NCBI GenBank assembly: GCA_041661795.1
Contig: JBAZTS010000002.1
Coordinates: 36,263-100,262, forward strand
DNA from: Minisyncoccota bacterium
GTDB lineage: Bacteria; Patescibacteriota; Minisyncoccia; UBA6257; JAGOQP01
Length of the DNA stretch: 64,000 bases
Direction: 5' to 3'
In this document: piece after piece, positions 1,820 through 62,734 of the stretch
Position numbering within the stretch: position 1 is the first letter of the stretch
How the letters are laid out: every line of letters starts with the position of its first letter
Made by a program: the position numbers and the translations under genes
The notes under the pieces: model-generated
Told to the model about the DNA's origin: nothing
The model's input: the letters and a program-made list of their open reading frames with translations, nothing else
The model's database searches: none

Positions 1820-2245
1820 ATGGAAAAGAAAAAAACAACCAAAAAGGCGGAGAAATATTTTGAGGCGGTCGGGAGAAGAAAAACTTCTACAGCCAGAATC
1901 AGAATATATCTTTCTAAAAAAGGAGACGACGGGTTTTTGATAAACGACAAGAATATATCTTCTTATTTTCCCATAAAAAATCATCAAGATACTGTTTTGA
2001 GCCCATTTAAAAGGTTGGATAATTTAGGCGATTTTTCCTTAACCGTTAAAGTTTCAGGTGGAGGAGTTTCTTCACAAGCCCAAGCTATAAGGCATGGTAT
2101 TGCCAGAGCTTTAATAATATTCAACCCCGATTTTAGAAAAAAGCTAAAATCTCTTGGATACCTTAAAAGGGATCCTCGTATGGTTGAAAGGAAGAAATAT
2201 GGATTGAAAAAAGCCAGACGAGCCCCTCAGTGGTCAAAGAGATAA
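1820..2245 (+). CDS. rpsI: 30S ribosomal protein S9
   Basis: C-terminal …GLKKARRAPQWSKR and GGG…QAIRHGIARAL are S9 hallmarks; conserved L13-S9 operon order. Confidence 0.9.
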   Translation: MEKKKTTKKAEKYFEAVGRRKTSTARIRIYLSKKGDDGFLINDKNISSYFPIKNHQDTVLSPFKRLDNLGDFSLTVKVSGGGVSSQAQAIRHGIARALIIFNPDFRKKLKSLGYLKRDPRMVERKKYGLKKARRAPQWSKR

Positions 2246-2321
2246 TTGGTATCTTGTAGCTTGTGATGTGTATTTTGGATGATAACCAGATACGAGCTAC
2301 TAAATACTAGCTACTAATAAC

Positions 2322-16012: not shown

Positions 16013-18334
16013 ATGTTAAGCGACAATATACGCAATTTTTGTATTATAGCCCACATAGATCACGGCAAATCTACATTGGCTGATAGGTTGCTTGAAATTA
16101 CAGGAACTATAGATAAGAGGAAGATGAAGAACCAATATCTTGATCAATTGGAATTGGAAAGAGAAAGAGGGATAACTATCAAAATGGCTCCTGTCCGCAT
16201 GCTCTATGCGCTGACTAACGCCGACTCTACGCCGACTGACGCAGACAATAAGAAATTAGATAATGCGAGTAGTCAATTATTGTATGAAGATTTAACCTAT
16301 AAAATAAGAGGAGTGTTGTTTGGCGTAAAGAAAAAAATAGGACTTGGTCATAAAGAAGTTATTTACCAAAAGGCCATAGAAGAAGAATTGACAAAAGAGA
16401 ACATACCTTTTGAAAAAGAAAAAATAATTAATATAGAACTTGATAATAAAAGTCTTGGCGTATACAGACCAGATTTTGTTATTGATAATAAAATTATATT
16501 AGAGATAAAATCTTTGCCTTTTATTGGAGATGTTGAGAAAAGGCAAGTTTGGACATATCTTAAGGGATCAGAATATAAATTGGCTTTATTAGTCAATTTC
16601 AATTCTAGAGATATTGATATTAAAAGAGTTGTGTATGATACAGCCAGAGAAATTCAGCGTGAGTCAGCGTTTAGTCAGCGTAAGTCGGCGCAGGTTGAGC
16701 AGTATGTGCTCAACCTGATAGACACTCCCGGGCATCCGGATTTTGGTTATGAAGTTTCCAGAGCTTTGGAAGCGGTTGAGGGGGCAATTTTGTTGGTTGA
16801 TGGAATGCAAGGAATACAAGCACAAACGTTATCTAATTTTTATGCTGCCAAAAAAGCCGGACTTACAATTATTGGCGCGGTTAACAAAGTGGATTTAAAT
16901 ATTCCTGACATAGATAAAGTTGTAATGGAAACAGCGGAGCTAATTGGTTGTGGGCCAGAACAAATTCATAAAATATCAGGAAGAACAGGAGAGGGAGTTC
17001 AACAGCTTTTGGGAGCAGTTATTCTTAGAATCCTACCTCCAAAAGCTGTAATTCCCAATTTCCAATTCCCAATTTCCAATTTTGGAAGGGCATTAATATT
17101 TGATTCTTTTTATGACGACCACAAAGGAATTATAGCCAGTGTCAGGGTATTTAATGGAGAATTTAATCAGTTTGATGATGTGGTTTTGGTGGCTGCTAAA
17201 GAAAAATTTAAAACAAAAGAAGTCGGATATTTTTCTCCGACCCTAAATCCTTCAAAAAGAATTTTAGAGGGAGAGATAGGTTATTTGGTTACCGGGATAA
17301 GAGACCCGTATAAAATAAAAATCGGTGACACGGTAATAGGTCACAAATCACAAGTCGCGCATCACGAATCGTATGCTTTGCCCGGATACAAAGAACCAAA
17401 GCCGGTGGTGTTTGTTTCTTTCTATCCAGACAATCCGGATGAATATGATGATTTAAAAAAATCTTTGGAAAGATTAAAGCTTAACGACTCTTCTTTTGCT
17501 TTTGAGCCGGATTTAAATGAAGTGTTGGGCAGGGGATTTAAAGGAGGATTTTTGGGAAAGCTTCATTTTGAAATAATTTCTCAGCGTCTTGAAAGAGAGT
17601 TTGGAATAAAAACAATCACATCTTTTCCTTCGGTCAGTTATAAAATAAAAACTTCTTCCAAACACTTAGCTCATCTAAAATTGGACGAAGATGGATTTTT
17701 CATAGCGTATAATCCCAAAGATATTCCTGAAGAATTTGAAAAGATATTAGAACCGATGATAAAAGTTGAAATTGTTTCATCACAAAAAATATTGGGAACA
17801 GTTTTGGGACTTAAAGATGCTTTTCGTTGGGAATACATAGAGACCCAACAATTGGGAGAAAAAGTTATTATTAAAACCAGAATGCCCTTGGCTGAGCTTA
17901 TCTCGGATTTTGACGACCAGTTAAAATCGGTTTCAGGTGGATTTGCTTCTTTTAGTTATGAAGAAGACGGCTATCAACAGGGCGATTTAATTAGGATGGA
18001 TATTTTAGTGGCAGACGAAATAGTTCCTGGGCTTTCTAGAATTCTTCCCAAAAAAGACATAGAATATCCGGCCAGGAAAATGGTTGTTCGCTTAAAGGAA
18101 GTATTGCCTCATCAGCAATTTACCCAAGCTATTCAAGCCAAAGTCGGAGGGAGAATTATAGCCAGAGAAACTATTGCGGCTTTAAGAAAAGATGTGACCG
18201 GATATCTTTATGGAGGAGACAGAACAAGAAAAATGAAACTTTGGAAAAAACAGCAAAGAGGCAAAAAGAAACTTCTTTCTATGGCCAAAGTGACCATATC
18301 TCCAGAAAACTTCAAGAAACTTCTTTCAAAATAA
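16013..18334 (+). CDS. lepA: elongation factor 4 (LepA) carrying a ~165-aa in-frame insertion (GxxExxY/PDDEXK_3 domain) in the G domain
   Basis: N-terminal NFCIIAHIDHGKSTLADRLL, …LIDTPGHPDFGYEVSRAL…, NKVDL, and the LepA C-terminal domain; the insertion lies between the ITIK (G2) and DTPGH (G3) motifs. Confidence 0.9.
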   Translation: MLSDNIRNFCIIAHIDHGKSTLADRLLEITGTIDKRKMKNQYLDQLELERERGITIKMAPVRMLYALTNADSTPTDADNKKLDNASSQLLYEDLTYKIRGVLFGVKKKIGLGHKEVIYQKAIEEELTKENIPFEKEKIINIELDNKSLGVYRPDFVIDNKIILEIKSLPFIGDVEKRQVWTYLKGSEYKLALLVNFNSRDIDIKRVVYDTAREIQRESAFSQRKSAQVEQYVLNLIDTPGHPDFGYEVSRALEAVEGAILLVDGMQGIQAQTLSNFYAAKKAGLTIIGAVNKVDLNIPDIDKVVMETAELIGCGPEQIHKISGRTGEGVQQLLGAVILRILPPKAVIPNFQFPISNFGRALIFDSFYDDHKGIIASVRVFNGEFNQFDDVVLVAAKEKFKTKEVGYFSPTLNPSKRILEGEIGYLVTGIRDPYKIKIGDTVIGHKSQVAHHESYALPGYKEPKPVVFVSFYPDNPDEYDDLKKSLERLKLNDSSFAFEPDLNEVLGRGFKGGFLGKLHFEIISQRLEREFGIKTITSFPSVSYKIKTSSKHLAHLKLDEDGFFIAYNPKDIPEEFEKILEPMIKVEIVSSQKILGTVLGLKDAFRWEYIETQQLGEKVIIKTRMPLAELISDFDDQLKSVSGGFASFSYEEDGYQQGDLIRMDILVADEIVPGLSRILPKKDIEYPARKMVVRLKEVLPHQQFTQAIQAKVGGRIIARETIAALRKDVTGYLYGGDRTRKMKLWKKQQRGKKKLLSMAKVTISPENFKKLLSK
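16209..16693 (+). mobile_element. in-frame inserted element: GC-rich terminal inverted repeats (tandem decamers CGCYGACTNA / inverted AGTCRGCG) flanking an AT-rich GxxExxY (PDDEXK_3) nuclease-domain cargo
   Basis: Left TIR 16209-16244 (cgctgactaa cgccgactcta cgccgactgac); right TIR 16661-16693 (gagtcagcgt ttagtcagcgt aagtcggcg); cargo YKIRGVLFGV…GLGHKEVIYQKAIEEEL…YRPDFVIDNKIILEIKS…LALLVNFNS…IKRVV matches the GxxExxY family. Confidence 0.7.
17050..17084 (+). repeat. heptamer array AATTCCC-AATTTCC-AATTCCC-AATTTCC-AATTTTG in-frame within lepA
   Basis: Direct reading; encodes IPNFQFPISNF. Confidence 0.85.
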
Positions 18335-19477: not shown

Positions 19478-20668
19478 ATGAAATATCTTAGAAATGTCAA
19501 AATAGAAAAGATAAGAAACAAAACCTGCGTTTTAAGGTTGGGTTTGGATATAAAGGATGGTGAGTTAAAAAATTCGTTGAGAGTTATAAAATCTATCCCG
19601 ACACTCAAATTTCTATTAAAAAACGACTGCAAAGTAGTGATAATTTCACATCGAGGTAGACCTCAAGAGGGGAAAGAGGAAAGTGAAAAGAGGAAAGTGA
19701 AAAGAGAAGAAACTTTAAGATCATTTGTGGAGATTTTTGAAAAACTACTAAAAACAAAGATTAGTTTTGATGACTCTTTTGATTTTAAAAAGATGAGTGA
19801 AAAGATTAAAAAACTTCACTCAAAATCTATAGTTATTGTTGAAAATATAAGATTAGTAAAAGGAGAAAAGGATGATAACGATAAGCTAGGGAGAGAATTG
19901 GCTTCTTTGGGAAATTTTTATGTGAATGATGATTTTTCTACCAGTCACAGAAAAAACGCTTCTTTATGTGCGATAACAAAATTCACACCTTCTTATGTTG
20001 GCCTGCAGTTTGAAGAAGAAATAAAGAATTTAGACAAAGTTCTTAAAAATCAAAGGAAGCCAGTTGTTCTGATTGTAGGGGGAGTTAAATTGTCGGACAA
20101 AGTTGGCGTAATAAAAAATTTCTTAAACAAGGCAGATTATGTTTTGACCGGTGGGGGAGTTTCCAATACTTTCTTTGCTGCTAAAGAAATTCCAGTTGGT
20201 GATTCGTTAATTGATAAAGAAATGATGAAAATGGCAAAAACCTTACTTAAATCAAAAAAAATCATTTTACCCCAAGACGTTAGGATAAAAGGAAAATCTA
20301 TATTGGATATAGGGGATAAAACCATTGAAGAATATAAAAAAATAATAGAAAAAGCAGGGACTATTATTTGGGGTGGACCGTTAGGATATTTTGAGGACAA
20401 AAAATTTGCCAAAGGAACATTTGAAATAGCCAGAGCGATTTTAAAATCAAAAGCTTTTTGTGTTATTGGCGGCGGAGAAACTACAGTCGCCTTTCTTAAG
20501 GCAACTCGCGGACTTACACGGACTTCACGCAGAACTACGCGGAAAACAGTCAGCGTCAGTCAGCGTTCAGTCGGCGTTGGTCAGCGCTTGTTTCTGTCTA
20601 CTGGTGGAGGGGCAATGTTGGAATATCTAGCAGGTAAAAAATTACCGGCTTTGGAAGCGCTTAAATAA
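19478..20668 (+). CDS. pgk: phosphoglycerate kinase with two in-frame repeat insertions
   Basis: …KVVIISHRGRPQ…, …YVNDDFSTSHR…, …GGGETTVA…STGGGAMLEYLAGK. Extra segments KEESEKRKVKREE (14-mer tandem repeat) and TRGLTRTSRRTTRKTVSVSQRSVGVGQRL (GC-rich TIR element). Confidence 0.9.
   Translation: MKYLRNVKIEKIRNKTCVLRLGLDIKDGELKNSLRVIKSIPTLKFLLKNDCKVVIISHRGRPQEGKEESEKRKVKREETLRSFVEIFEKLLKTKISFDDSFDFKKMSEKIKKLHSKSIVIVENIRLVKGEKDDNDKLGRELASLGNFYVNDDFSTSHRKNASLCAITKFTPSYVGLQFEEEIKNLDKVLKNQRKPVVLIVGGVKLSDKVGVIKNFLNKADYVLTGGGVSNTFFAAKEIPVGDSLIDKEMMKMAKTLLKSKKIILPQDVRIKGKSILDIGDKTIEEYKKIIEKAGTIIWGGPLGYFEDKKFAKGTFEIARAILKSKAFCVIGGGETTVAFLKATRGLTRTSRRTTRKTVSVSQRSVGVGQRLFLSTGGGAMLEYLAGKKLPALEALK
19668..19713 (+). 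repeat. purine-rich 14-mer (GAGGAAAGTGAAAA)x2 with degenerate flanks, 7-nt periodic, in-frame within pgk
   Basis: Direct reading; encodes KEESEKRKVKREE. Confidence 0.85.
20507..20588 (+). mobile_element. cargo-less copy of the GC-rich decamer-TIR element, in-frame within pgk
   Basis: cgcggactta cacggacttca cgcagaacta cgcggaaaa | cagtcagcgt cagtcagcgt tcagtcggcgt tggtcagcg: the same direct-then-inverted subrepeat architecture as the lepA element; 50-60% GC against a ~35% background. Confidence 0.6.
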
Positions 20669-21522: not shown

Positions 21523-21604
21523 CTTGTATATAGTAGCTCGTATCTTGTATAAGAGAAGATTGTATGCCAACTACTAGCTACAAGATACTAGATACAATTT
21601 TATT

Positions 21605-38040: not shown

Positions 38041-38168
38041 TATAATATTTTGTGTAATTTTTATATCTATCATTTCTTGCTACAGCAACCAGATTTATAT
38101 ATAACCGGTACTTAATATGTAATTTTTTGTATATAGTATTTGGTATACGGTATACGATATTCGGTATT

Positions 38169-39272
38169 CTATTTTAGATTCTCTATTATAGCTATCTCAA
38201 AGGGCACCAAGGGGAAAGGATTGTATTTCATTTGGGAGTAGGCGGTGATGAGCGCTTTTATAAGTTTTATCTGCTCGTCCGTATCTATTTTAGCCGAATG
38301 TTTTTTTATTTCTTTTATTTGGCTTTCGGCCAATTCCTTTTCAAATATCTTTTCCAGTTCCGGATTAAGATGTAAAGAAAGAACCCTTCTTAAATATTCT
38401 GTCAGATCTTTGTTAAATTGAAAAAGATTGTATCCCTGACTGTTTATTTCGTATAAAAATTCCAGCGACTTTTGTAAGTCCTTTTTTATGACCAAATCGG
38501 CCATTTTTATTGTTTTTAGAAAATCAACTTTTCCCAAGATGCTTTCCACGTATTCAACGGTAATATTCTTGCCCTTCATGGAAACAATCTGGTCAAAAAG
38601 AGATTCGGCATCTCTTAAACTTCCTTCAGCTAAAAAGGCAATCATTTCCAAAGCTTCTTTTTCGTATTCTACTTTTTCTTCTTTGGCGATAAATGAAAGT
38701 TTTTTTATAATCTCCTGTAGTGTCAGCTTTCTAAAATGAAATCTCTGGGTTCGGGAAACAATAGTGGGAGGGAGCTTGTCGTATTCGGTGGTGGCTAATA
38801 TAAAAACGGCATGGGCTGGCGGTTCTTCTAAAGTTTTTAAAAGAGCGTTAAATGCCTGTGGAGTGAGCATGTGAACTTCATCTATGATAAAGATTTTGTA
38901 TTTAAGATAAGAGGGGAGTGTTTTTATGTTTTCTTTGAGATTTCTTATTTCATCTATTCCTCGGTTGGAAGCGGCGTCAATTTCAACGACATCCAAAGCT
39001 CTGCCTTCTTCAACTTGTAAACAGGCGTGACATTCTCCACAGGGCTCTCCTTGCTTGGCAAAGTTTTCGTCCTCTTGTCTTTTCTGGCAGTTAATTATTT
39101 TGGAAAAGATTCTGGCGATAGTTGTTTTGCCGGTTCCTCTTGAACCGTAGAAAAGATAGGCATGAGAAATTTTACCTTCCTTAACTGAATTTTGAAGTAT
39201 GGTAACCGTATTTTCCTGACCGTAAATATCAGCAAGTTTTTTTGGTCGGTATTTTCTATAAATAGCTAACAT
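38169..39272 (-). CDS. dnaX: DNA polymerase III subunit gamma/tau (short form, 367 aa)
   Basis: KYRPKKLADIYGQENTVTIL…GSRGTGKTT (Walker A), Zn module CGECHAC, DEVHML, SRTQRF sensor. Confidence 0.85.
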   Translation of the reverse strand: MLAIYRKYRPKKLADIYGQENTVTILQNSVKEGKISHAYLFYGSRGTGKTTIARIFSKIINCQKRQEDENFAKQGEPCGECHACLQVEEGRALDVVEIDAASNRGIDEIRNLKENIKTLPSYLKYKIFIIDEVHMLTPQAFNALLKTLEEPPAHAVFILATTEYDKLPPTIVSRTQRFHFRKLTLQEIIKKLSFIAKEEKVEYEKEALEMIAFLAEGSLRDAESLFDQIVSMKGKNITVEYVESILGKVDFLKTIKMADLVIKKDLQKSLEFLYEINSQGYNLFQFNKDLTEYLRRVLSLHLNPELEKIFEKELAESQIKEIKKHSAKIDTDEQIKLIKALITAYSQMKYNPFPLVPFEIAIIENLK

Positions 39273-39278
39273 ATCAAT

Positions 39279-39315
<37 letters not shown>

Positions 39316-39366: not shown

Positions 39367-39922
39367 GTGGAACAGGTGGTGCGACCTTAGCTCACTCGGT
39401 GCTGTCGAGTTCGCTCGCCCGATATACTCTCCGGGTGATACGAGAGCTCGAATCTGCCGAGACGTGACGCGTGGTCACTTTTTGCTAAGGTTTTTTGGGG
39501 TGCTGCTCCTCTTCCTGTTCGGTACTTTCTAAGAACGGTTCCCACACCGTTCTCGCCGGCGAGCTTAGCTCGCGCAGGGTAGAGGCGCCTCCTAAAGGAG
39601 GCAAAACATGAGTACAAATTCGGAATTGGATTTTTGTGAGTTTCCGGACTCACTATCTCGTTTGGTGCACCTCCCGAGAAGTCCTTTTCCTTCCACTTAT
39701 TATTGGGCCAGTTTGAGATCAGCGGTGGACACTCAAACTGTTTGCGTGCTTTCACCGAGCTTGCCGGATTTACTCGGATCTTTGGTGAGATGGCGCAACC
39801 CCACAGTTTTGACCTCCCTCAGCTGCGCGCGCAACTGAGTTGTCAGCTCACCTAGTGACAGAGGCCCCCTTTTTGACCGTTTTTTCTTCTTGGTCCGGAA
39901 GGGTTTCCGTGCTACATTTTTA
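39335..39922 (-). ncRNA. unclassified GC-rich structured transcript (~590 nt) upstream of and co-directional with dnaX; candidate SRP RNA, tmRNA or other ncRNA
   Basis: Consensus promoter (TTGACA-N16-TATAAT at 39930-39957, minus strand) and intrinsic terminator; 55-60% GC; many hairpins (CCUCCuuuaGGAGG, GCGAGCuaaGCUCGC, GAGAACGGUgugggaACCGUUCUU); no convincing long ORF. Confidence 0.4.
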
Positions 39923-51133: not shown

Positions 51134-51178
51134 TTATAATAATCATATACCGAATACAGTATACCGTATACCGCAAAA

Positions 51179-52666
51179 ATGACTAAGTATATTAAATCTA
51201 AATTAAATAGTTGCTTTTCTTATCCCGATATACGGTCTACGGTTTACAGTTCCCGTTCCTTCACCCTTGTAGAACTCCTCGTCGTCATAGGTATCCTAGC
51301 AGTCCTTACTACAGCAGTCGTTATCATCCTCAATCCTGCTGATTATCTTGCTCAATCTCGTGACTCTAGAAGAATGAATGACCTCTCTCTCCTCAATAAC
51401 TCTCTCCAGAACTTAGAAGCCATAGACCCTACCATATCTTTTGGAACATCTCTTACCGTCTATATCTCCATCCCAGACGATGCTTCTTCTACCTGTGGAA
51501 CCTTAGGATTACCCAATCTTTCTTCAGGATATACATATAACTGTGTCTCTACAGCTAATCTCACCAAAACAGATGGTACAGGTTGGGTTCCTGTCAACTT
51601 TACTACTCAATCTATTGTTCAATTATCTGCTCTTCCTATAGATCCTACTAATACCCCTACAGATGGACTTTATTATACATATACTCCTGGAGGGAGTTGG
51701 CATCTAAGATCTATTCTTGAATCATCTAAATATCAATCCAAAGCTCTAAACGATGGAGGCACATCAGACAACGCCTTTGAAACAGGAACGAACATGGCTC
51801 TTGCTCCAGCAGTATTCCCCAACAACTGGATAAAGGTTCCCGGAAGCTCCACATACAATACCTCTGATTTTTGGGTTATGAAGTATGAGGCCAAGTATGA
51901 CAAGGATAATGATGGAAAAGGAGATGCAACATCATATTGTAGATACGGTGGTTATAATTCAATTTCTATTGGTTGTGTTACTGGTGGCAGTTTTATATCC
52001 TCAGCTTATGGTTTTCCTGTTGCTACCGCTTATTCTGCTTCTGACGCTAACAATGCCTGTTCTTCTACCGGTGCTCATCTTGTTACAAATAACGAATGGA
52101 TGACGATCGCCAGAAATGTAGAACAAGTTGATTCCAACTGGACAGGCGGTTCTGTTGGTTCCGGAAAATTATTTATTGGCAACTATGGTTATTGTTATGG
52201 AGTTAGTAATTGCTATACCTTTAGTGGCACGTTTCAAGATTATGGAACTAATAGAAACTCAAGAGCAAAGTTGACTCTTTCCAATAAGGAAGAAATATAT
52301 GACTTTTCTGGTAATATGGCCGAAAATGTAAAACTCGGATCTTCTTTTGCTATTACCGAAGCAAATCATCCGGATGCGATCAGTATAGGAGATTGGGCCA
52401 ATAATGATTTTTTATCTCTTACTAGTTATGGAGATTTTTCTTCTTATGATAATCTAGGACCATCTGATGACTCATGGACTAATGCCAGTCAAGGAGTTGG
52501 ATATATGTATCATTGCGATGGATGTTCTTCTGGTGGCGCCTCAACAATAATTAGAGGAGGATCAGTTGATTCTCAAGCCGCTGGAGCTCCTGGAATATAT
52601 ACGATTCGTCTGCGTTATATAGGTGGCGATTATAATGCTTATAGTGGTTTTCGCTGCGCTAAATAA
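51179..52666 (+). CDS. type IV pilin-like protein with a C-terminal FGE-sulfatase/C-type-lectin-like domain
   Basis: …RS|FTLVELLVVIGILAVLTTAVVII (prepilin-type N-terminal helix); C-terminal …NNEWMTIARN…DFSGNMAENV… resembles FGE-sulfatase-domain motifs; C-ending codon bias unlike its neighbours. Confidence 0.55.
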   Translation: MTKYIKSKLNSCFSYPDIRSTVYSSRSFTLVELLVVIGILAVLTTAVVIILNPADYLAQSRDSRRMNDLSLLNNSLQNLEAIDPTISFGTSLTVYISIPDDASSTCGTLGLPNLSSGYTYNCVSTANLTKTDGTGWVPVNFTTQSIVQLSALPIDPTNTPTDGLYYTYTPGGSWHLRSILESSKYQSKALNDGGTSDNAFETGTNMALAPAVFPNNWIKVPGSSTYNTSDFWVMKYEAKYDKDNDGKGDATSYCRYGGYNSISIGCVTGGSFISSAYGFPVATAYSASDANNACSSTGAHLVTNNEWMTIARNVEQVDSNWTGGSVGSGKLFIGNYGYCYGVSNCYTFSGTFQDYGTNRNSRAKLTLSNKEEIYDFSGNMAENVKLGSSFAITEANHPDAISIGDWANNDFLSLTSYGDFSSYDNLGPSDDSWTNASQGVGYMYHCDGCSSGGASTIIRGGSVDSQAAGAPGIYTIRLRYIGGDYNAYSGFRCAK

Positions 52667-54871: not shown

Positions 54872-54962
54872 CAAAACAAGTTTCGAAACCGCTTCACTGC
54901 CGTGAACAACACTACAGAAAGAGCGGTCGGAGCACTGCTCTTTCACAGAAAGGGGAACTTCG

Positions 54963-55361
54963 ATGAGTGGGATCGCTTGGTTTTTCGAGGTGTTCGCTCT
55001 GCTGTTTTTCGTGGGGACTCTGGGCGTTGCTTTCATCGGACGCCGCATCCTCAAGGCGGAGCAGGAGTCGTCGGTTCTGATGTCTTTCCTCCAGATCTGC
55101 AGTGGAGCGCTCTTCATCTTCTACGTTTTCGGACTGGGTCAACTCATGGCTCTGTCTGGACTGGAAGGTGCAAGGGCGCCCCGGTGGCTGATTCCGGGCA
55201 CCTACATCACTCTCACCATCTTCAGCGCGTTGACTCGGCTGGCTCTTCCAAGGTGGGGCAGTGACAACAAAGCGATGCAACTCTGGAGTGTCGTCAGCGT
55301 CCTGACGTTCCTACTCGGCACGTTCTGCCTCGGGGCGTACTCGTCCAACTACTTCGAGTAG
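54963..55361 (+). CDS. GC-rich (~58% GC) 4-TM membrane protein of unknown function
   Basis: AAAGGGGAAC RBS before the ATG at 54963; four hydrophobic helices; terminator hairpin at 55386-55420; overlapping alternative-frame ORFs were rejected. Confidence 0.4.
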   Translation: MSGIAWFFEVFALLFFVGTLGVAFIGRRILKAEQESSVLMSFLQICSGALFIFYVFGLGQLMALSGLEGARAPRWLIPGTYITLTIFSALTRLALPRWGSDNKAMQLWSVVSVLTFLLGTFCLGAYSSNYFE

Positions 55362-55385
55362 GTCTCCTTCTTCAGCTCTTCAACT

Positions 55386-55420
55386 GGCGGCGTCTCTCAC
55401 GAGGCGCCGCACTGCTTTTT
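55386..55420 (+). terminator. intrinsic terminator (GGCGGCGucucucacgagGCGCCGC followed by a T-run)
   Basis: GC stem followed by ACTGCTTTTT. Confidence 0.55.
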
Positions 55421-56607: not shown

Positions 56608-56645
56608 TGTTTTTTTATTTTTATCCTTATCTTAATCTTAATCTA

Positions 56646-56681
56646 CCATTACATTTAGAACGATCGTTCTAAATGTAATGG
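56646..56681. repeat. 36-bp perfect palindrome CCATTACATTTAGAACGATCGTTCTAAATGTAATGG (copy 2, intergenic)
   Basis: Between the uvrC-like start and the PaaX-like stop. Confidence 0.85.
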
Positions 56682-56684
56682 TGG

Positions 56685-57245: not shown

Positions 57246-57270
57246 AACAATATTATATCATCATTTATTA

Positions 57271-57306
57271 CCATTACAATTAGAACGATCGTTCTAATTG
57301 TAATGG
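57271..57306. repeat. 36-bp perfect palindrome CCATTACAATTAGAACGATCGTTCTAATTGTAATGG (copy 3, upstream of the PaaX-like gene)
   Basis: Lies 26 nt upstream of the PaaX-like start codon. Confidence 0.85.
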
Positions 57307-61193: not shown

Positions 61194-61411
61194 AGATAAT
61201 AATCATCGTAAAACCAAATAAAAAAGAAAATAAGGTTGTGAAAATAGGAGAGAACATTTTTGAAATTTATACGAATCAACCGGCTAAAGAAAATAAAGCC
61301 AATTTGGATATTATTCAACAAATGTCCAAGTATTTTAAAGTATCAAAATCAAAGGTTTCTATATCTTCCGGATTAAAGTCAAAGAAGAAAATTTTGGAAA
61401 TAAATATATAA
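61190..61411 (+). CDS. DUF167 (YggU-like) family protein
   Basis: 73 aa; …KANLDIIQQMSKYFKVSKSKVSISSGLKSKKKILEI matches the DUF167 C-terminal consensus (AN…L…VxKsxVxIxxGxxSRxK). Confidence 0.65.
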   Translation: MKIIIIVKPNKKENKVVKIGENIFEIYTNQPAKENKANLDIIQQMSKYFKVSKSKVSISSGLKSKKKILEINI

Positions 61412-61443
61412 AAAAAGGGGGCTCCCGGTGTTGCTGGGAGCCC
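61410..61443 (-). terminator. intrinsic terminator of the minus-strand GC-rich transcript (GGGCUCCCagcaacaccGGGAGCCC followed by UUUUUUU)
   Basis: Seen on the reverse complement; it also caps the convergent DUF167 gene. Confidence 0.6.
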
Positions 61444-61940
61444 AAAGTGCGGTAAGGAGGTCAATGTACGATGCGGTGCCTGCCGTGCGTCGCTTCGCTC
61501 GTTCGGGTCTTGGTGGTTCAGATCAGGGCCAGTCGTGCCCGAAAACTTAACTTTCTGGCCCATTGCTTCTCGGCACGCATGGTTTCTCCTTGCATGGATT
61601 TTTGGTCCACGCAGCTCTGCCCTCAGCGCTTGACGGTGGCCTCGTCGTTGGTGCGGTGGTTGTTCTGACGCTGTTGCATGGGATTTCTCCTCGCGTGAAC
61701 GTCGTCGGTTGTTGGTGCTAGCTATGGCTCAAGTCAAGCTTTCTTTTCGGTGAGCTTGACGAGCAGTGCTAGCGCCTGTTCTGGGTTTCGTTTTTTATCG
61801 GTATAACCTTCACAAGGTTATACCAGGGTTTCCTTCCTGATTGGCGGTCAAGAAGGTTGTTTAATCATCCAGCATTGTCCTAACTAACGGAACGGCGGTT
61901 CGACGTCCACGTGCATCGCTTTCCTCCTTATGTAGTTTAC
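61443..61940 (-). ncRNA. GC-rich (~57% GC) transcript with only mini-ORFs (10, 18 and 20 codons, each with a strong SD); function unknown
   Basis: Promoter TTGACT-N17-TATCCT (minus strand, 61948-61976); first mini-ORF UAAGGAGGAAAGCG-AUG (MHVDVEPPFR); ends at the terminator at 61410-61443. Confidence 0.35.
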
Positions 61941-62693: not shown

Positions 62694-62699
62694 AAGATT

Positions 62700-62734
62700 A
62701 GTATATAGTATTTAGTAGTTAGTATATAGTATAA
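62700..62734. repeat. heptamer tandem array AGTATAT-AGTATTT-AGTAGTT-AGTATAT-AGTATAA
   Basis: Direct reading; in the divergent SDR/rmuC promoter region. Confidence 0.75.

What the first reader, a model, noticed from the sequence alone, without database searches (positions are those of the whole stretch)
20507..20588. Cargo-less copy of the same decamer-TIR element in-frame inside pgk
Between GGGETTVAFLKA and LSTGGGAM, PGK has an extra roughly 28 aa (TRGLTRTSRRTTRKTVSVSQRSVGVGQRL). They are encoded by an 82-nt GC-rich block with the identical design: direct subrepeats CGCGGACTTA-CACGGACTTCA-CGCAGAACTA-CGCGGAAAA, then inverted subrepeats CAGTCAGCGT-CAGTCAGCGT-TCAGTCGGCGT-TGGTCAGCG. It looks like a MITE-type solo derivative of the lepA element, again without breaking the frame. 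Two independent in-frame insertions of one repeat family in two housekeeping genes argue for a genuine selfish in-frame element rather than chance.
Basis: seen in the sequence. Interest (0 to 1): 0.75.

Follow-up and report, generated by a model that had tools for sequence, protein, structure and literature searches.

The report
In-frame palindromic repeat element inside pgk
A GC-rich, hairpin-forming repeat of about 90 bases sits in frame in a surface loop of the glycolytic enzyme PGK of a tiny candidate-phylum bacterium. It is the cargo-less relative of a nuclease-carrying cassette lodged in frame in the neighbouring lepA gene, and it points to a largely undescribed family of elements that live inside housekeeping genes without breaking them.

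Summary
Window 20507-20588 is a 59% GC block in a 36% GC Paceibacterota genome. It is built of four left units (CGCGGACTTA-like) and four inverted right units (CAGTCAGCGT-like) with a 10-11 nt period. Its right arm matches both arms of the lepA-embedded GxxExxY (PF13366) cassette, 3.8 kb away, at 84-87% over 38-39 nt.

It is in frame. It enlarges a PGK loop from 17-20 aa to 39 aa, and it is modelled as a disordered excursion from an otherwise confident PGK fold. Stop avoidance (CGCTGA changed to CGCGGA or CGCAGA) indicates that it is translated.

- There are two copies in 82 kb.
- There is no target-site duplication.
- The same PGK site holds related elements in roughly 25 of the 120 nearest homologues.

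Wider searches show a conserved architecture: nuclease ORF, two inverted unit arrays, and often short hairpins pairing host codons with the element ends. It is embedded in frame in LepA, RecG, GatB, AsnB, RtcB, transketolase and glycosyltransferases, and cargo-less forms occur at the same sites and in RNase P RNA.

The mobility mechanism is inferred, not shown. The closest analogue is the Rickettsia palindromic element. I found no published description.

The parts
19478..20668 (+). pgk (phosphoglycerate kinase, 396 aa), the host gene
   Evidence: ORF. Pfam PF00162 at 1.2e-92 over profile positions 5-379 of 379. 100% identical to an NCBI/JGI 'Candidatus Paceibacterota' PGK. AlphaFold model with mean pLDDT 92.
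20485..20506 (+). Left junction mini-hairpin (H1). Host codons AGTCGCCTT (20485-93) are followed by the loop TCTT and the element's first segment AAGGCAACT (20498-506).
   Evidence: 9-bp stem with 1 mismatch. The equivalent stems are perfect in other PGK loci and follow the host's codon choice: L001 AGTCGCCTCT/AGAGGCGACT and L003 AGTCGCTGTTT/AAACAGCGACT.
20507..20546 (+). Left arm: four direct units (CGCGGACTTA, CACGGACTTCA, CGCAGAACTA, CGCGGAAAA), period 10-11 nt
   Evidence: It is degenerate relative to the complement of the right arm. The exact complement would contain TGA in all three frames (reading of the sequences).
20547..20589 (+). Right arm: four inverted units (CAGTCAGCGT, CAGTCAGCGTT, CAGTCGGCGTT, GGTCAGCGC)
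   Evidence: TRF period 10, 3.8 copies. 34/39 and 32/38 identity to the lepA arms.
16013..18334 (+). lepA (EF4, 773 aa), which hosts the cargo-bearing element
   Evidence: TIGR01393 at 7e-194 in two stretches.
16204..16246 (+). Left arm of the lepA cassette (GCGCTGACTAA, CGCCGACTCTA, CGCCGACTGA, CGCAGAC)
16268..16648 (+). GxxExxY / PDDEXK_3 nuclease domain. It has no start or stop codon of its own and is read as part of LepA.
16654..16696 (+). Right arm of the lepA cassette (TCAGCGTG, AGTCAGCGTTT, AGTCAGCGTA, AGTCGGCGCAG)
16691..16717 (+). Right junction mini-hairpin (H3) of the lepA cassette. Element segment CAGGTTGAGCA is followed by the loop GTATG and the host codons TGCTCAACCTG (V-L-N-L).
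   Evidence: Perfect 11-bp stem. The exact reverse complement of the host Leu-Asn-Leu codons is present.

Best explanation
**What it is.** The block is a cargo-less, palindromic DNA element of the same family as the GxxExxY-nuclease cassette embedded in lepA 3.8 kb upstream. The family's architecture is:
- an optional short segment complementary to the upstream host codons;
- an array of about four 10-11-nt units (core CGCNGAC);
- an optional nuclease ORF without its own start or stop;
- the inverted array (core GTCNGCG);
- an optional segment complementary to the downstream host codons.

**What is shown for the pgk copy.** It lies in a solvent-exposed linker between the GGGET strand and the STGGGA motif. 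It is read through by the ribosome as a basic Arg/Thr/Ser/Val-rich, disordered peptide of about 30 aa. It persists because it does not break PGK. Selection on the reading frame has removed the stop codons that an exact left arm would carry, so the left arm is eroded and the hairpin is imperfect.

**What is inferred.** The unit arrays, spaced at one helical turn, are binding sites for the cassette's Cas4/RecB-like PD-(D/E)XK nuclease. That nuclease would promote copying or repair-mediated spread of both cassette and cargo-less forms into sites that resemble a unit. The host sequence here is AGTCGCC; in lepA it is GTCCGC. The two copies in this genome would be related by a local copy or by gene conversion. 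The steps of the mobility mechanism are not established.
For: **Family relationship.** Unit enrichment is, and arm identity of 84-87%, far above the null, is. The same DNA units are read in different frames in lepA (QRESAFSQRKSAQ) and pgk (VSVSQRSVGVGQR). The similarity is therefore at the DNA level, not the protein level.

**Insertion status.** Insert-free PGK loops are 17-20 aa, including the closest relatives.

**Translation.**
- All 11 lepA inserts with DNA are multiples of 3.
- Three recG cassettes are in frame.
- Six PGK inserts with DNA are open.
- About 25 of 120 PGK homologues carry open inserts of this type, and only one ORF is broken at this site.
- Left arms use CGCGGA or CGCAGA where the right arms imply CGCTGA.
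- Hairpin mismatches coincide with stop avoidance: CAA rather than TAA opposite a TTA codon.

**Tolerated location.** In the PGK model, pLDDT is below 50 at residues 353-366 and 90 or more elsewhere.

**Cargo and cargo-less pairs.** At the lepA site there are cassettes in W, L004, L126-L129 and L134, and cargo-less forms in L147-L150.

**Nuclease.** The domain is full length. D/E/K are invariant. The model has pLDDT 94. The nearest folds are Cas4, Dna2 and RecE. The cargo is as conserved as the host LepA.

**Generality.** The family has 29,231 representatives, many embedded in RecG, GatB, AsnB, RtcB, transketolase, GT4, P-type ATPase and Wzy, always with arm-encoded peptides on both sides. Free-standing copies are also flanked by inverted arrays.

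**Recent mobility at this loop.** A 54-nt in-frame presence/absence polymorphism of another hairpin element lies in the same PGK loop, between contigs that differ by 2 of 1167 nt.

**Not RNA-specific.** Arm hairpins are no more stable on the sense strand.
Against: - Only two elements of this unit type are present in 82.3 kb, so proliferation in this genome is not shown.
- No empty-site allele of this lineage exists in the databases searched. The nearest PGK is 53% identical. The insertion event and its boundaries are therefore inferred from distant comparisons.
- The same PGK site carries 38-39 aa loops with four plus four units in lineages whose PGKs are only 45-53% identical. This fits a single old insertion as well as repeated insertion.
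- In the syntenic relative L150, the pgk and lepA elements use different units. Within-genome matching of copies is therefore not general.
- No biochemical evidence links the nuclease to the units.
- One lepA cassette (L004) has an in-frame TAA. Three fragmentary lepA ORFs end just after the right arm. The one examined has a scaffold gap there.
Confidence: 0.62

Rival explanations
1. The repeats were generated locally rather than by a mobile element. Replication slippage and template switching (quasi-palindrome formation) in a mutation-tolerant loop built the tandem and inverted arrays in place. Gene conversion with the nearby lepA arrays made the two loci alike. The nuclease gene is simply another passenger in such repeat-rich spots.
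For: - The genome is full of short-period tandem repeats, many in frame in ORFs.
- One-armed arrays without an inverted partner occur in frame in L003 pgk and RNase H, and in W and L150 lepA.
- The same loops (PGK C-terminal loop, PGK after HRGRP, LepA sites 1-3) carry unrelated repeat types in different lineages.
- Host flanks resemble units.
- Junction hairpins could be maintained by template-switch correction rather than by selection.
- There are only two copies in 82 kb.
Against: - The architecture is highly stereotyped (about 4+4 units, period 10-11, loop of 38-39 aa) in six PGK lineages. The same architecture flanks GxxExxY ORFs in many unrelated host genes and in free-standing copies.
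- Identity of 84-87% over 39 nt, with the same unit order, between two loci in different genes requires transfer of sequence between loci in any case.
- A clean whole-element (54 nt) presence/absence polymorphism lies in this loop.
- A cargo-less element occurs in an RNase P RNA gene.
Confidence: 0.2
2. It is an RNA-level element. The arms and the junction hairpins, which pair exon codons with the element ends much as P1/P10 or a bulge-helix-bulge would, direct excision of the block from pgk mRNA. Alternatively they form a regulatory or processing hairpin, so that the mature protein lacks the insert.
For: - Hairpins pair host codons with the element termini at both junctions of lepA elements, with compensatory changes. 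In H1, 5 of 11 pairs have double changes and 0 of 500 shuffles reach the observed value. In H3, there are exact complements of five different Leu-Asn-Leu codon combinations, with a chance of 0.0026 per locus.
- One lepA cassette carries an in-frame stop yet has an intact downstream ORF.
- An element sits in an RNase P RNA helix.
Against: - Frame and openness are preserved in essentially all cases and stop codons are purged from left arms. Neither is needed for a spliced element.
- The sense strand shows no folding advantage or G-U enrichment. Summed energies are -583 kcal/mol sense and -617 antisense over 14 elements.
- There is no Rfam family or ribozyme core, and 90 nt is too small for a self-splicing intron.
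- The single stop in L004 is a C-to-A change that also breaks the hairpin, so it looks like a recent lesion.
- The nearest folds are DNA nucleases.
Confidence: 0.06
3. It is an ordinary lineage-specific PGK loop, ancestral or adaptive (for example a basic surface patch). It only coincidentally resembles the lepA repeats.
For: Loops of 38-39 aa occur at this position in several Paceibacteria lineages, and the peptide is strongly basic.
Against: - The peptide sequences are not conserved between lineages, whereas the DNA repeat architecture is.
- The closest relatives lack the loop.
- DNA identity to the lepA arms is far above chance, and the units are read in a different frame there.
- The region is modelled as disordered.
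Confidence: 0.03

Closest known systems
Rickettsia palindromic elements (RPEs; Ogata et al. 2000, from my own knowledge; mentioned in PMC1779305 and PMC10969869)
   Same: Both are short (about 100 nt) palindromic repeats inserted in frame in housekeeping protein genes and also in RNA genes. Both are translated, sit in surface-exposed regions, and have no known transposition mechanism.
   Different: - The sequence and the host phylum are unrelated.
- The arms here are arrays of 10-11-nt sub-repeats.
- The family has a cargo-bearing form encoding a PD-(D/E)XK nuclease, whereas RPEs have no associated gene.
- Copy number in this genome is low.
- The ends often pair with host codons.
REP/REPIN elements with their RAYT gene
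   Same: In both, a single gene for a nucleic-acid enzyme is flanked by inverted copies of the repeat. That repeat also exists elsewhere without the gene.
   Different: RAYT is an HUH/Y1 IS200/IS605-like transposase and REPINs are extragenic. Here the enzyme is a Cas4/RecB-like PD-(D/E)XK nuclease, and the elements lie inside coding sequences, in frame.
MITEs
   Same: Both are small, non-coding, bounded by terminal inverted repeats, and related to a longer element that carries a gene.
   Different: - No target-site duplication was found.
- The parent does not encode a DDE transposase.
- Only two copies were seen in 82 kb.
- The terminal repeats are arrays of sub-repeats, a design known from eukaryotic Foldback elements (my own knowledge).
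Inteins and other homing-endonuclease-bearing intervening elements
   Same: Both have an in-frame nuclease-containing insertion at the same conserved site of essential genes in many lineages: LepA beta2-beta3 turn, RecG between motifs II and III. Both have mini forms that lack the nuclease.
   Different: There are no splicing residues at the junctions (sequences) and no ribozyme. The insert appears to stay in the protein.
Intervening sequences of 23S rRNA carrying small ORFs (four-helix-bundle S23p family; my own knowledge)
   Same: Both are inverted-repeat-bounded insertions in conserved genes, and the GxxExxY and four-helix-bundle families are both small, highly paralogous proteins. A cargo-less element extends a helix of RNase P RNA in L128.
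   Different: Those elements lie in rRNA and are removed by RNase III. This one is in an mRNA and is translated.

Membership tests
Rickettsia palindromic elements (as a kind: in-frame palindromic repeats) | Palindromic repeat of about 100 nt inserted in frame in a protein-coding gene without disrupting it | tested here: met
   Hairpin. In frame and open. The PGK domain is intact and the fold is confident.
Rickettsia palindromic elements (as a kind: in-frame palindromic repeats) | Many dispersed copies per genome | tested here: inconclusive
   Two elements of this unit type in 82.3 kb of a 156-kb contig. The rest of the genome was not available.
Rickettsia palindromic elements (as a kind: in-frame palindromic repeats) | Sequence homology to RPE-1 to RPE-8 consensus sequences | not tested
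   No RPE consensus was available in the tools. Both the organism (Patescibacteria) and the unit structure differ.
MITE | Target-site duplication flanking the element | tested here: not met
   Only the Phe-Leu codons (TTTCT) recur on both sides in the window. No consistent direct repeat is present in L001, L003 or L150-L152. The clean 54-nt polymorphism in the same loop has no duplication.
MITE | Terminal inverted repeats shared with an autonomous element that encodes a transposase | tested here: inconclusive
   The arms are shared with the lepA cassette. Its protein, however, is a PD-(D/E)XK nuclease of unknown function, not a recognised transposase.
REPIN/RAYT | Associated gene is an IS200/IS605-like Y1 (HUH) transposase | tested here: not met
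   The associated gene is PF13366/TIGR04256 and has a Cas4/Dna2/RecE-like fold.
Intein | Nucleophile (C/S/T) at the insert N-terminus and His-Asn plus C/S/T at the C-terminal junction | tested here: not met
   The junction sequences vary and lack these residues, for example Y|ALTNAD...SAQVEQ|Y in the window and Y|HPDRG...|Y elsewhere.
Group I / group II intron | Ribozyme core detectable by covariance models | tested here: not met
   Rfam finds only RNase P and two tRNAs in the window and nothing on the block even at E up to 10.
GxxExxY / PDDEXK_3 protein family (the cargo of the lepA element) | Full-length match to TIGR04256/PF13366 with the PD-(D/E)XK catalytic residues | tested here: met
   1.9e-30 and 7e-29, full length. 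D68, E78 and K80 are invariant and present.
IS200/IS605-type single-strand elements and their palindrome-associated derivatives | Subterminal hairpins, with guide sequences pairing to flanking cleavage sites; insertion without target duplication | tested here: inconclusive
   Flank-pairing hairpins are present and there is no duplication. But the pairing is 9-15 nt rather than 4-5 nt, and no TnpA-like protein is present.

The most novel reading that the evidence does not exclude
The pgk block is the cargo-less form of a previously undescribed class of bacterial selfish element. These would be in-frame 'nuclease cassettes' that encode a Cas4/RecB-like PD-(D/E)XK protein (GxxExxY, PF13366, function unknown until now). 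They are bounded by inverted arrays of helical-period sub-repeats and by guide-like segments complementary to the host codons on either side. They would colonise the same conserved loops of housekeeping genes across Patescibacteria much as inteins do, but would stay in the mRNA and the protein. The flank-complementary ends would specify or stabilise the insertion site.
Probability: 0.4. Interest if true: 0.85.

Novelty: new variant of a known kind. Interest (0 to 1): 0.7.

Why it matters
If the reading is right, four things follow.
- It gives a first biological context to a very large protein family of unknown function. PF13366/TIGR04256 has about 29,000 clusters at 50% identity.
- It shows that in Patescibacteria many essential enzymes (PGK, LepA, RecG, GatB, RtcB and others) carry translated selfish DNA in their loops. 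This affects gene calling, protein-family alignments, structure prediction and phylogenomics of these organisms.
- It offers a second, independent example of the Rickettsia phenomenon of 'selfish DNA inside proteins'. This one has an associated enzyme, which makes the long-open question of how such elements move experimentally testable.
- The junction hairpins that track host codon choice are an unexplained feature that could reveal a new targeting or repair mechanism.

Tried and rejected
- **Genome-collection scan.** I scanned with AGTCVGCG x3. None of those loci carries a GxxExxY gene. The scan was wasted, so copies elsewhere in this genome could not be counted that way.
- **Contig extension.** Extending the contig by 18.3 kb found no further copies.
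- **Rfam.** Nothing on the block or the window beyond RNase P and tRNAs.
- **Literature.** Searches for GxxExxY, PDDEXK_3, CPR with palindromic and in-frame, and Parcubacteria with inverted repeats found no description. The one survey lists PF13366 as 'unknown'.
- **PDB sequence search.** No relative was found, so a fold search was needed.
- **Sense-strand RNA structure.** I tested whether the arms prefer the sense strand and rejected the idea.
- **Host against cargo co-divergence.** The test was inconclusive. Pearson 0.58 is driven by one close pair, and Spearman is not significant.
- **Target-site duplication.** Not found.
- **Target duplication of a palindromic site.** I considered this for the junction hairpins, prompted by the RNase P case. 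I rejected it for lepA because the two junction hairpins are unrelated in sequence.
- **Truncated lepA ORFs.** The fragmentary ORFs ending after the right arm (P0123-P0125) could not be resolved. The one contig examined has a scaffold gap there.
Full report
**1. What is in the window**

The window is AT-rich (35.9% GC). It comes from a 'Candidatus Paceibacterota' metagenome-assembled genome. Its PGK is identical to an NCBI/JGI/ENA entry, and the contig is ENA ERZ27249449 k141_214873, 156,027 nt.

pgk is the ORF 19478-20668 (396 aa). It gives a full-length Pfam PGK match. The reported block at 20507-20588 is there exactly as described. It is 82 nt at 59% GC. It has four direct units of 10-11 nt (CGCGGACTTA, CACGGACTTCA, CGCAGAACTA, CGCGGAAAA), followed by four units of the opposite polarity (CAGTCAGCGT, CAGTCAGCGTT, CAGTCGGCGTT, GGTCAGCGC). 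Tandem Repeats Finder sees both arrays. The block folds as an imperfect hairpin on either strand, with z of -2.1 and -3.2.

**2. Relation to the lepA element**

lepA (16013-18334, 773 aa) contains a complete GxxExxY/PDDEXK_3 domain in frame (TIGR04256 1.9e-30, PF13366 7e-29). The domain lies between inverted arrays of the same units.

- The 8-mer AGTCRGCG occurs 10 times in the window against 0.83 expected. Nine of the ten lie in the two lepA arms and the pgk block.
- The pgk right arm aligns without gaps to the reverse complement of the lepA left arm at 34/39, and to the lepA right arm at 32/38. Scores are 53 and 46, against a maximum of 22 for random window segments.
- The unit order and spacing are the same.
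- The shared DNA is read in different frames in the two genes (…QRESAFSQRKSAQ… in LepA, …VSVSQRSVGVGQR… in PGK). The relationship is therefore at the DNA level.
- The pgk left arm is much more diverged.

The exact complement of the pgk right arm would contain TGA in all three frames. The T of CGCTGA is replaced by G or A in the pgk left arm. The same replacement is seen in the left arms of PGK elements from five other lineages, whereas the right arms keep TCAGCG.

**3. An insertion, but at a recurrently occupied site**

In an alignment of the 120 best PGK homologues (all Patescibacteria-like, 44-56% identical), the segment between GGGE and STGGG is 16-20 aa in most. This includes the three closest relatives, which have 19 aa. 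It is 39 aa in the window. So the block is not ancestral PGK.

The net gain is 19-22 aa, and part of the ancestral linker has been replaced. About 25 of the 120 homologues carry long inserts of the same kind at exactly this position, scattered over a neighbour-joining tree.

DNA was obtained for six of them: the window, L001, L003, L150, L151 and L152. All have 38-39 aa loops built of four left and four right units. The core CGC(G/A)GA / TC(C/A/T)GCG is shared, but the flanking unit bases are lineage-specific and co-vary between the arms: GGAT with ATC, GGAA with TTC, GGAC with GTC.

The syntenic relative L150 has the gene order lepA-divIC-orf-pgk-[free GxxExxY]-DHH. Its loop has the same length but a different unit, ACGCAGATAAA / ATCTGCGT. 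One old insertion followed by within-genome homogenisation and repeated insertion are therefore both possible.

Only one homologue has an ORF broken at this site. Open, in-frame inserts are thus strongly favoured.

**4. The element is translated and tolerated**

- All 11 lepA inserts for which I have DNA are multiples of three: 495, 486, 501, 513, 501, 531, 471, 102, 90, 102 and 81 nt.
- Three recG cassettes are in frame: 495, 504 and 513 nt.
- Stop codons are purged from the frame in use but not from the other frames or the other strand.
- Where a perfect hairpin would need TAA opposite a TTA Leu codon, the element has CAA.
- An AlphaFold model of the window PGK is confident overall (pLDDT 92) but falls below 50 at residues 353-366. 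The insert reads as an extended helix followed by a disordered loop protruding from an intact fold.
- The arm hairpins show no folding advantage on the sense strand. Summed energies over 14 elements are -583 kcal/mol sense and -617 antisense, with fewer G-U pairs on the sense strand. No Rfam family matches.

I therefore reject an mRNA-level role as the main explanation.

**5. The wider family**

A search with the lepA insert found the same cassette at the same LepA position. That position is the beta2-beta3 turn, after PVRMxY and before YxLNLIDTPGH. In most CPR LepAs this turn is only two residues long.
- Cassettes: L004, L005, L126-L129 and L134.
- Cargo-less elements at that site: L147, L149 and L150. 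L148 carries a heptamer-unit version.

The cassette also sits in frame at one site of RecG, between motifs II and III, in L130-L132.

Free-standing GxxExxY genes are likewise flanked by an upstream left array and a downstream right array. The unit differs from copy to copy (CGCGGA, CACGGAT, GCTGAT, ATTAGCA…).

A profile search of 1.84 billion representatives finds 29,231 family members. Many of the best hits are long proteins with the domain embedded internally:
- RecG
- LepA-like GTPases
- GatB
- asparagine synthase
- RtcB
- transketolase
- GT4 glycosyltransferases
- a P-type ATPase
- O-antigen ligase

In every case arm-encoded peptides (…TQIDADK… upstream, …QRESA… downstream) lie on either side of the domain.

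Cargo-less elements also occur in a pseudouridine synthase (L004) and inside an RNase P RNA gene (L128). One-armed arrays occur in frame in L003 pgk and RNase H.

**6. The cargo**

The PD-(D/E)XK residues D, E and K are invariant across 53 homologues and are present in the window copy. Among seven lepA cassettes the cargo is as conserved as LepA itself: 52-79% against 51-85% identity. It is therefore under purifying selection and is presumably active. The one survey that lists PF13366 gives its function as unknown.

**7. An unexpected feature: hairpins that pair host codons with the element ends**

*Left junction.* At the left junction of lepA elements, the codons for V-R-M-x are followed, after the Tyr codon, by their reverse complement. 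An example is L129 GTTCGAATGGT-gt-ACCATTCGAAC. There are perfect stems of 9-12 bp in 6 of 12 loci.

*Right junction.* The element ends with the reverse complement of the following x-L-N-L codons. An example is the window's CAGGTTGAGCA-gtatg-TGCTCAACCTG. There are stems of 11-15 bp in 5 of 11 loci.

*Background.* Perfect stems of 9 bp or more occur at 0.6 per kb in these loci.

*Co-variation.* The element-side half follows synonymous differences in the host half.
- In the left hairpin, 5 of 11 pairs show changes on both sides, and 0 of 500 shuffles reach the observed value.
- Five different Leu-Asn-Leu codon combinations are each matched exactly, with a chance of 0.0026 per locus.
- This explains the recurring 'H-[PST]-[DNH]' and 'Q-V-E' peptides at the junctions.

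*PGK.* PGK elements have the left hairpin: window 9 bp with one mismatch, L001 10 bp, L003 11 bp, and weaker or absent in L150-L152. They have no clear right one.

*Exceptions.* The L126/L127 lepA clade has neither the left nor the right flank-complementary segment; L127 has only an 8-bp palindrome within the host codons. The feature is therefore frequent but not obligatory.

*Unresolved.* I cannot decide among three explanations:
- guide-like ends that define the target;
- inverted copies of the flanks made during a hairpin-mediated insertion;
- quasi-palindromes kept perfect by template switching.

The single in-frame stop found (L004 lepA) is a C-to-A change that also breaks the right hairpin. 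It looks like a recent lesion.

**8. Evidence for recent mobility at this very loop**

Two contigs, L155 and L156, differ by 2 of 1167 nt in pgk and are identical upstream. They differ by a clean 54-nt, in-frame insertion of another GC-rich double hairpin (TCCCGCC…GGCGGGA, twice). It lies inside heptamer repeats in the same PGK loop, and there is no target-site duplication. This is a different repeat family. It still shows that whole hairpin elements are gained or lost in frame at this position on short time scales.

**9. Copy number in this genome**

A profile search of all six frames finds one GxxExxY gene in the window. Extending the contig by 9.8 and 8.5 kb adds no further array of this unit type. 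That makes two elements, 3.8 kb apart, in 82.3 kb. A local copy or gene conversion between them is the simplest reading of their similarity. A 'prolific MITE' is not shown.

**10. Verdict**

It needs correcting on size and boundaries, on the MITE label, and on the idea of a simple independent recent insertion.

The closest known phenomenon is the Rickettsia palindromic element. The differences are:
- arms made of sub-repeats;
- the associated Cas4-like nuclease embedded in frame in host genes;
- the hairpins that pair with the flanks.

I found no description of this in the literature available here. How the elements move remains inference.

Noticed in passing
window 17050-17082 (in lepA): A heptamer repeat AATT(C/T)CC x4.7 is read in frame as NFQFPISN, just before the conserved ALIFD motif. 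The same heptamer and peptide fill the PGK C-terminal loop in other lineages (P0033, P0038, P0083, L155/L156). In L150 the same LepA site holds a different repeat insert.
   Followed up: partly
window 17339-17375 (in lepA): A one-armed heptamer array (CACAAAT CACAAGT CGCGCAT CACGAAT) is read in frame as HKSQVAHHES. The same LepA site carries a palindromic four-plus-four-unit element in L150. At this site a whole clade of LepA ORFs (P0234, P0262, P0268, P0277, P0287, P0290, P0295, P0298) ends prematurely, some on contigs of up to 57 kb. This suggests a stop-bearing intervening element there.
   Followed up: no
window 19671-19706 (in pgk): A purine-rich 14-nt repeat x2.4 is read in frame as GKEESEKRKVKREE, just after the HRGRP motif. 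It has low pLDDT (64-75) in the PGK model. The same site carries unit arrays in L003 and L151, so it is a second insertion hot spot in PGK.
   Followed up: partly
window 2240-2317 and 21530-21595: Two intergenic hairpins are built from the same short units (TAGCTTGTAT… / …ATACTAGCTAC). This is a second sub-repeat palindrome family in this genome. Similar heptamer arrays lie at 38125-38169, 39279-39311, 51146-51250 (with an inverted partner) and 62699-62733.
   Followed up: no
window 39380-39800, 54900-55420, 61400-61800: These are GC-rich (0.53-0.60), strongly folding regions in an AT-rich genome. For two of them (39380-39800 and 54900-55420) a permissive Rfam search also found nothing; none of the three contains an ARAGORN tRNA/tmRNA gene or a gathering-threshold Rfam match. 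They could be unannotated structured RNAs.
   Followed up: partly
window 56645-56682 and 57270-57306: Two near-identical 37-38-nt perfect palindromes (ACCATTACA(T/A)TTAGAACGATCGTTCTAA(A/T)TGTAATGGT) bracket a 186-aa ORF on the minus strand with a PaaX_M domain. They look like operator sites.
   Followed up: no
L128 1039-1135: A cargo-less element of four plus four units, with flanking mini-hairpins, is inserted in a peripheral helix of the RNase P RNA gene. The elements are therefore not confined to protein-coding genes.
   Followed up: partly
L155 4063-4116 versus L156 (PGK P0012 versus P0033): A clean 54-nt in-frame presence/absence polymorphism of a GC-rich double hairpin (TCCCGCC…GGCGGGA, twice) lies in the PGK loop between nearly identical contigs. 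There is no target-site duplication. Related 'PPAG/RGGGPRG' peptides appear in other PGKs (P0060, P0039, P0054).
   Followed up: partly
L130-L132; P0321-P0441: The GxxExxY domain is embedded in frame, with arm-encoded peptides on both sides, in RecG, GatB, asparagine synthase, RtcB, transketolase, GT4 glycosyltransferases, a P-type ATPase and O-antigen ligase. P0164 is a fusion to the N-terminus of a type IV pilin-like protein. Many proteins of about 265 aa are tandem double GxxExxY domains.
   Followed up: partly
L004 6669-6671; L157 1590-1720: One lepA cassette has a TAA immediately after the right arm, yet lepA continues in the same frame. Another is followed by an AT-rich stretch with a scaffold gap that replaces the LNLID codons. 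They may be recent pseudogenes, assembly problems, or something else.
   Followed up: partly
L150 5191-5660: In the syntenic relative, a free-standing GxxExxY gene lies directly downstream of pgk. Its left array (GCGAAT units) overlaps the last pgk codons, and its right array (ATTAGCA units) is AT-rich. Unit sequences therefore differ widely between cassettes.
   Followed up: partly
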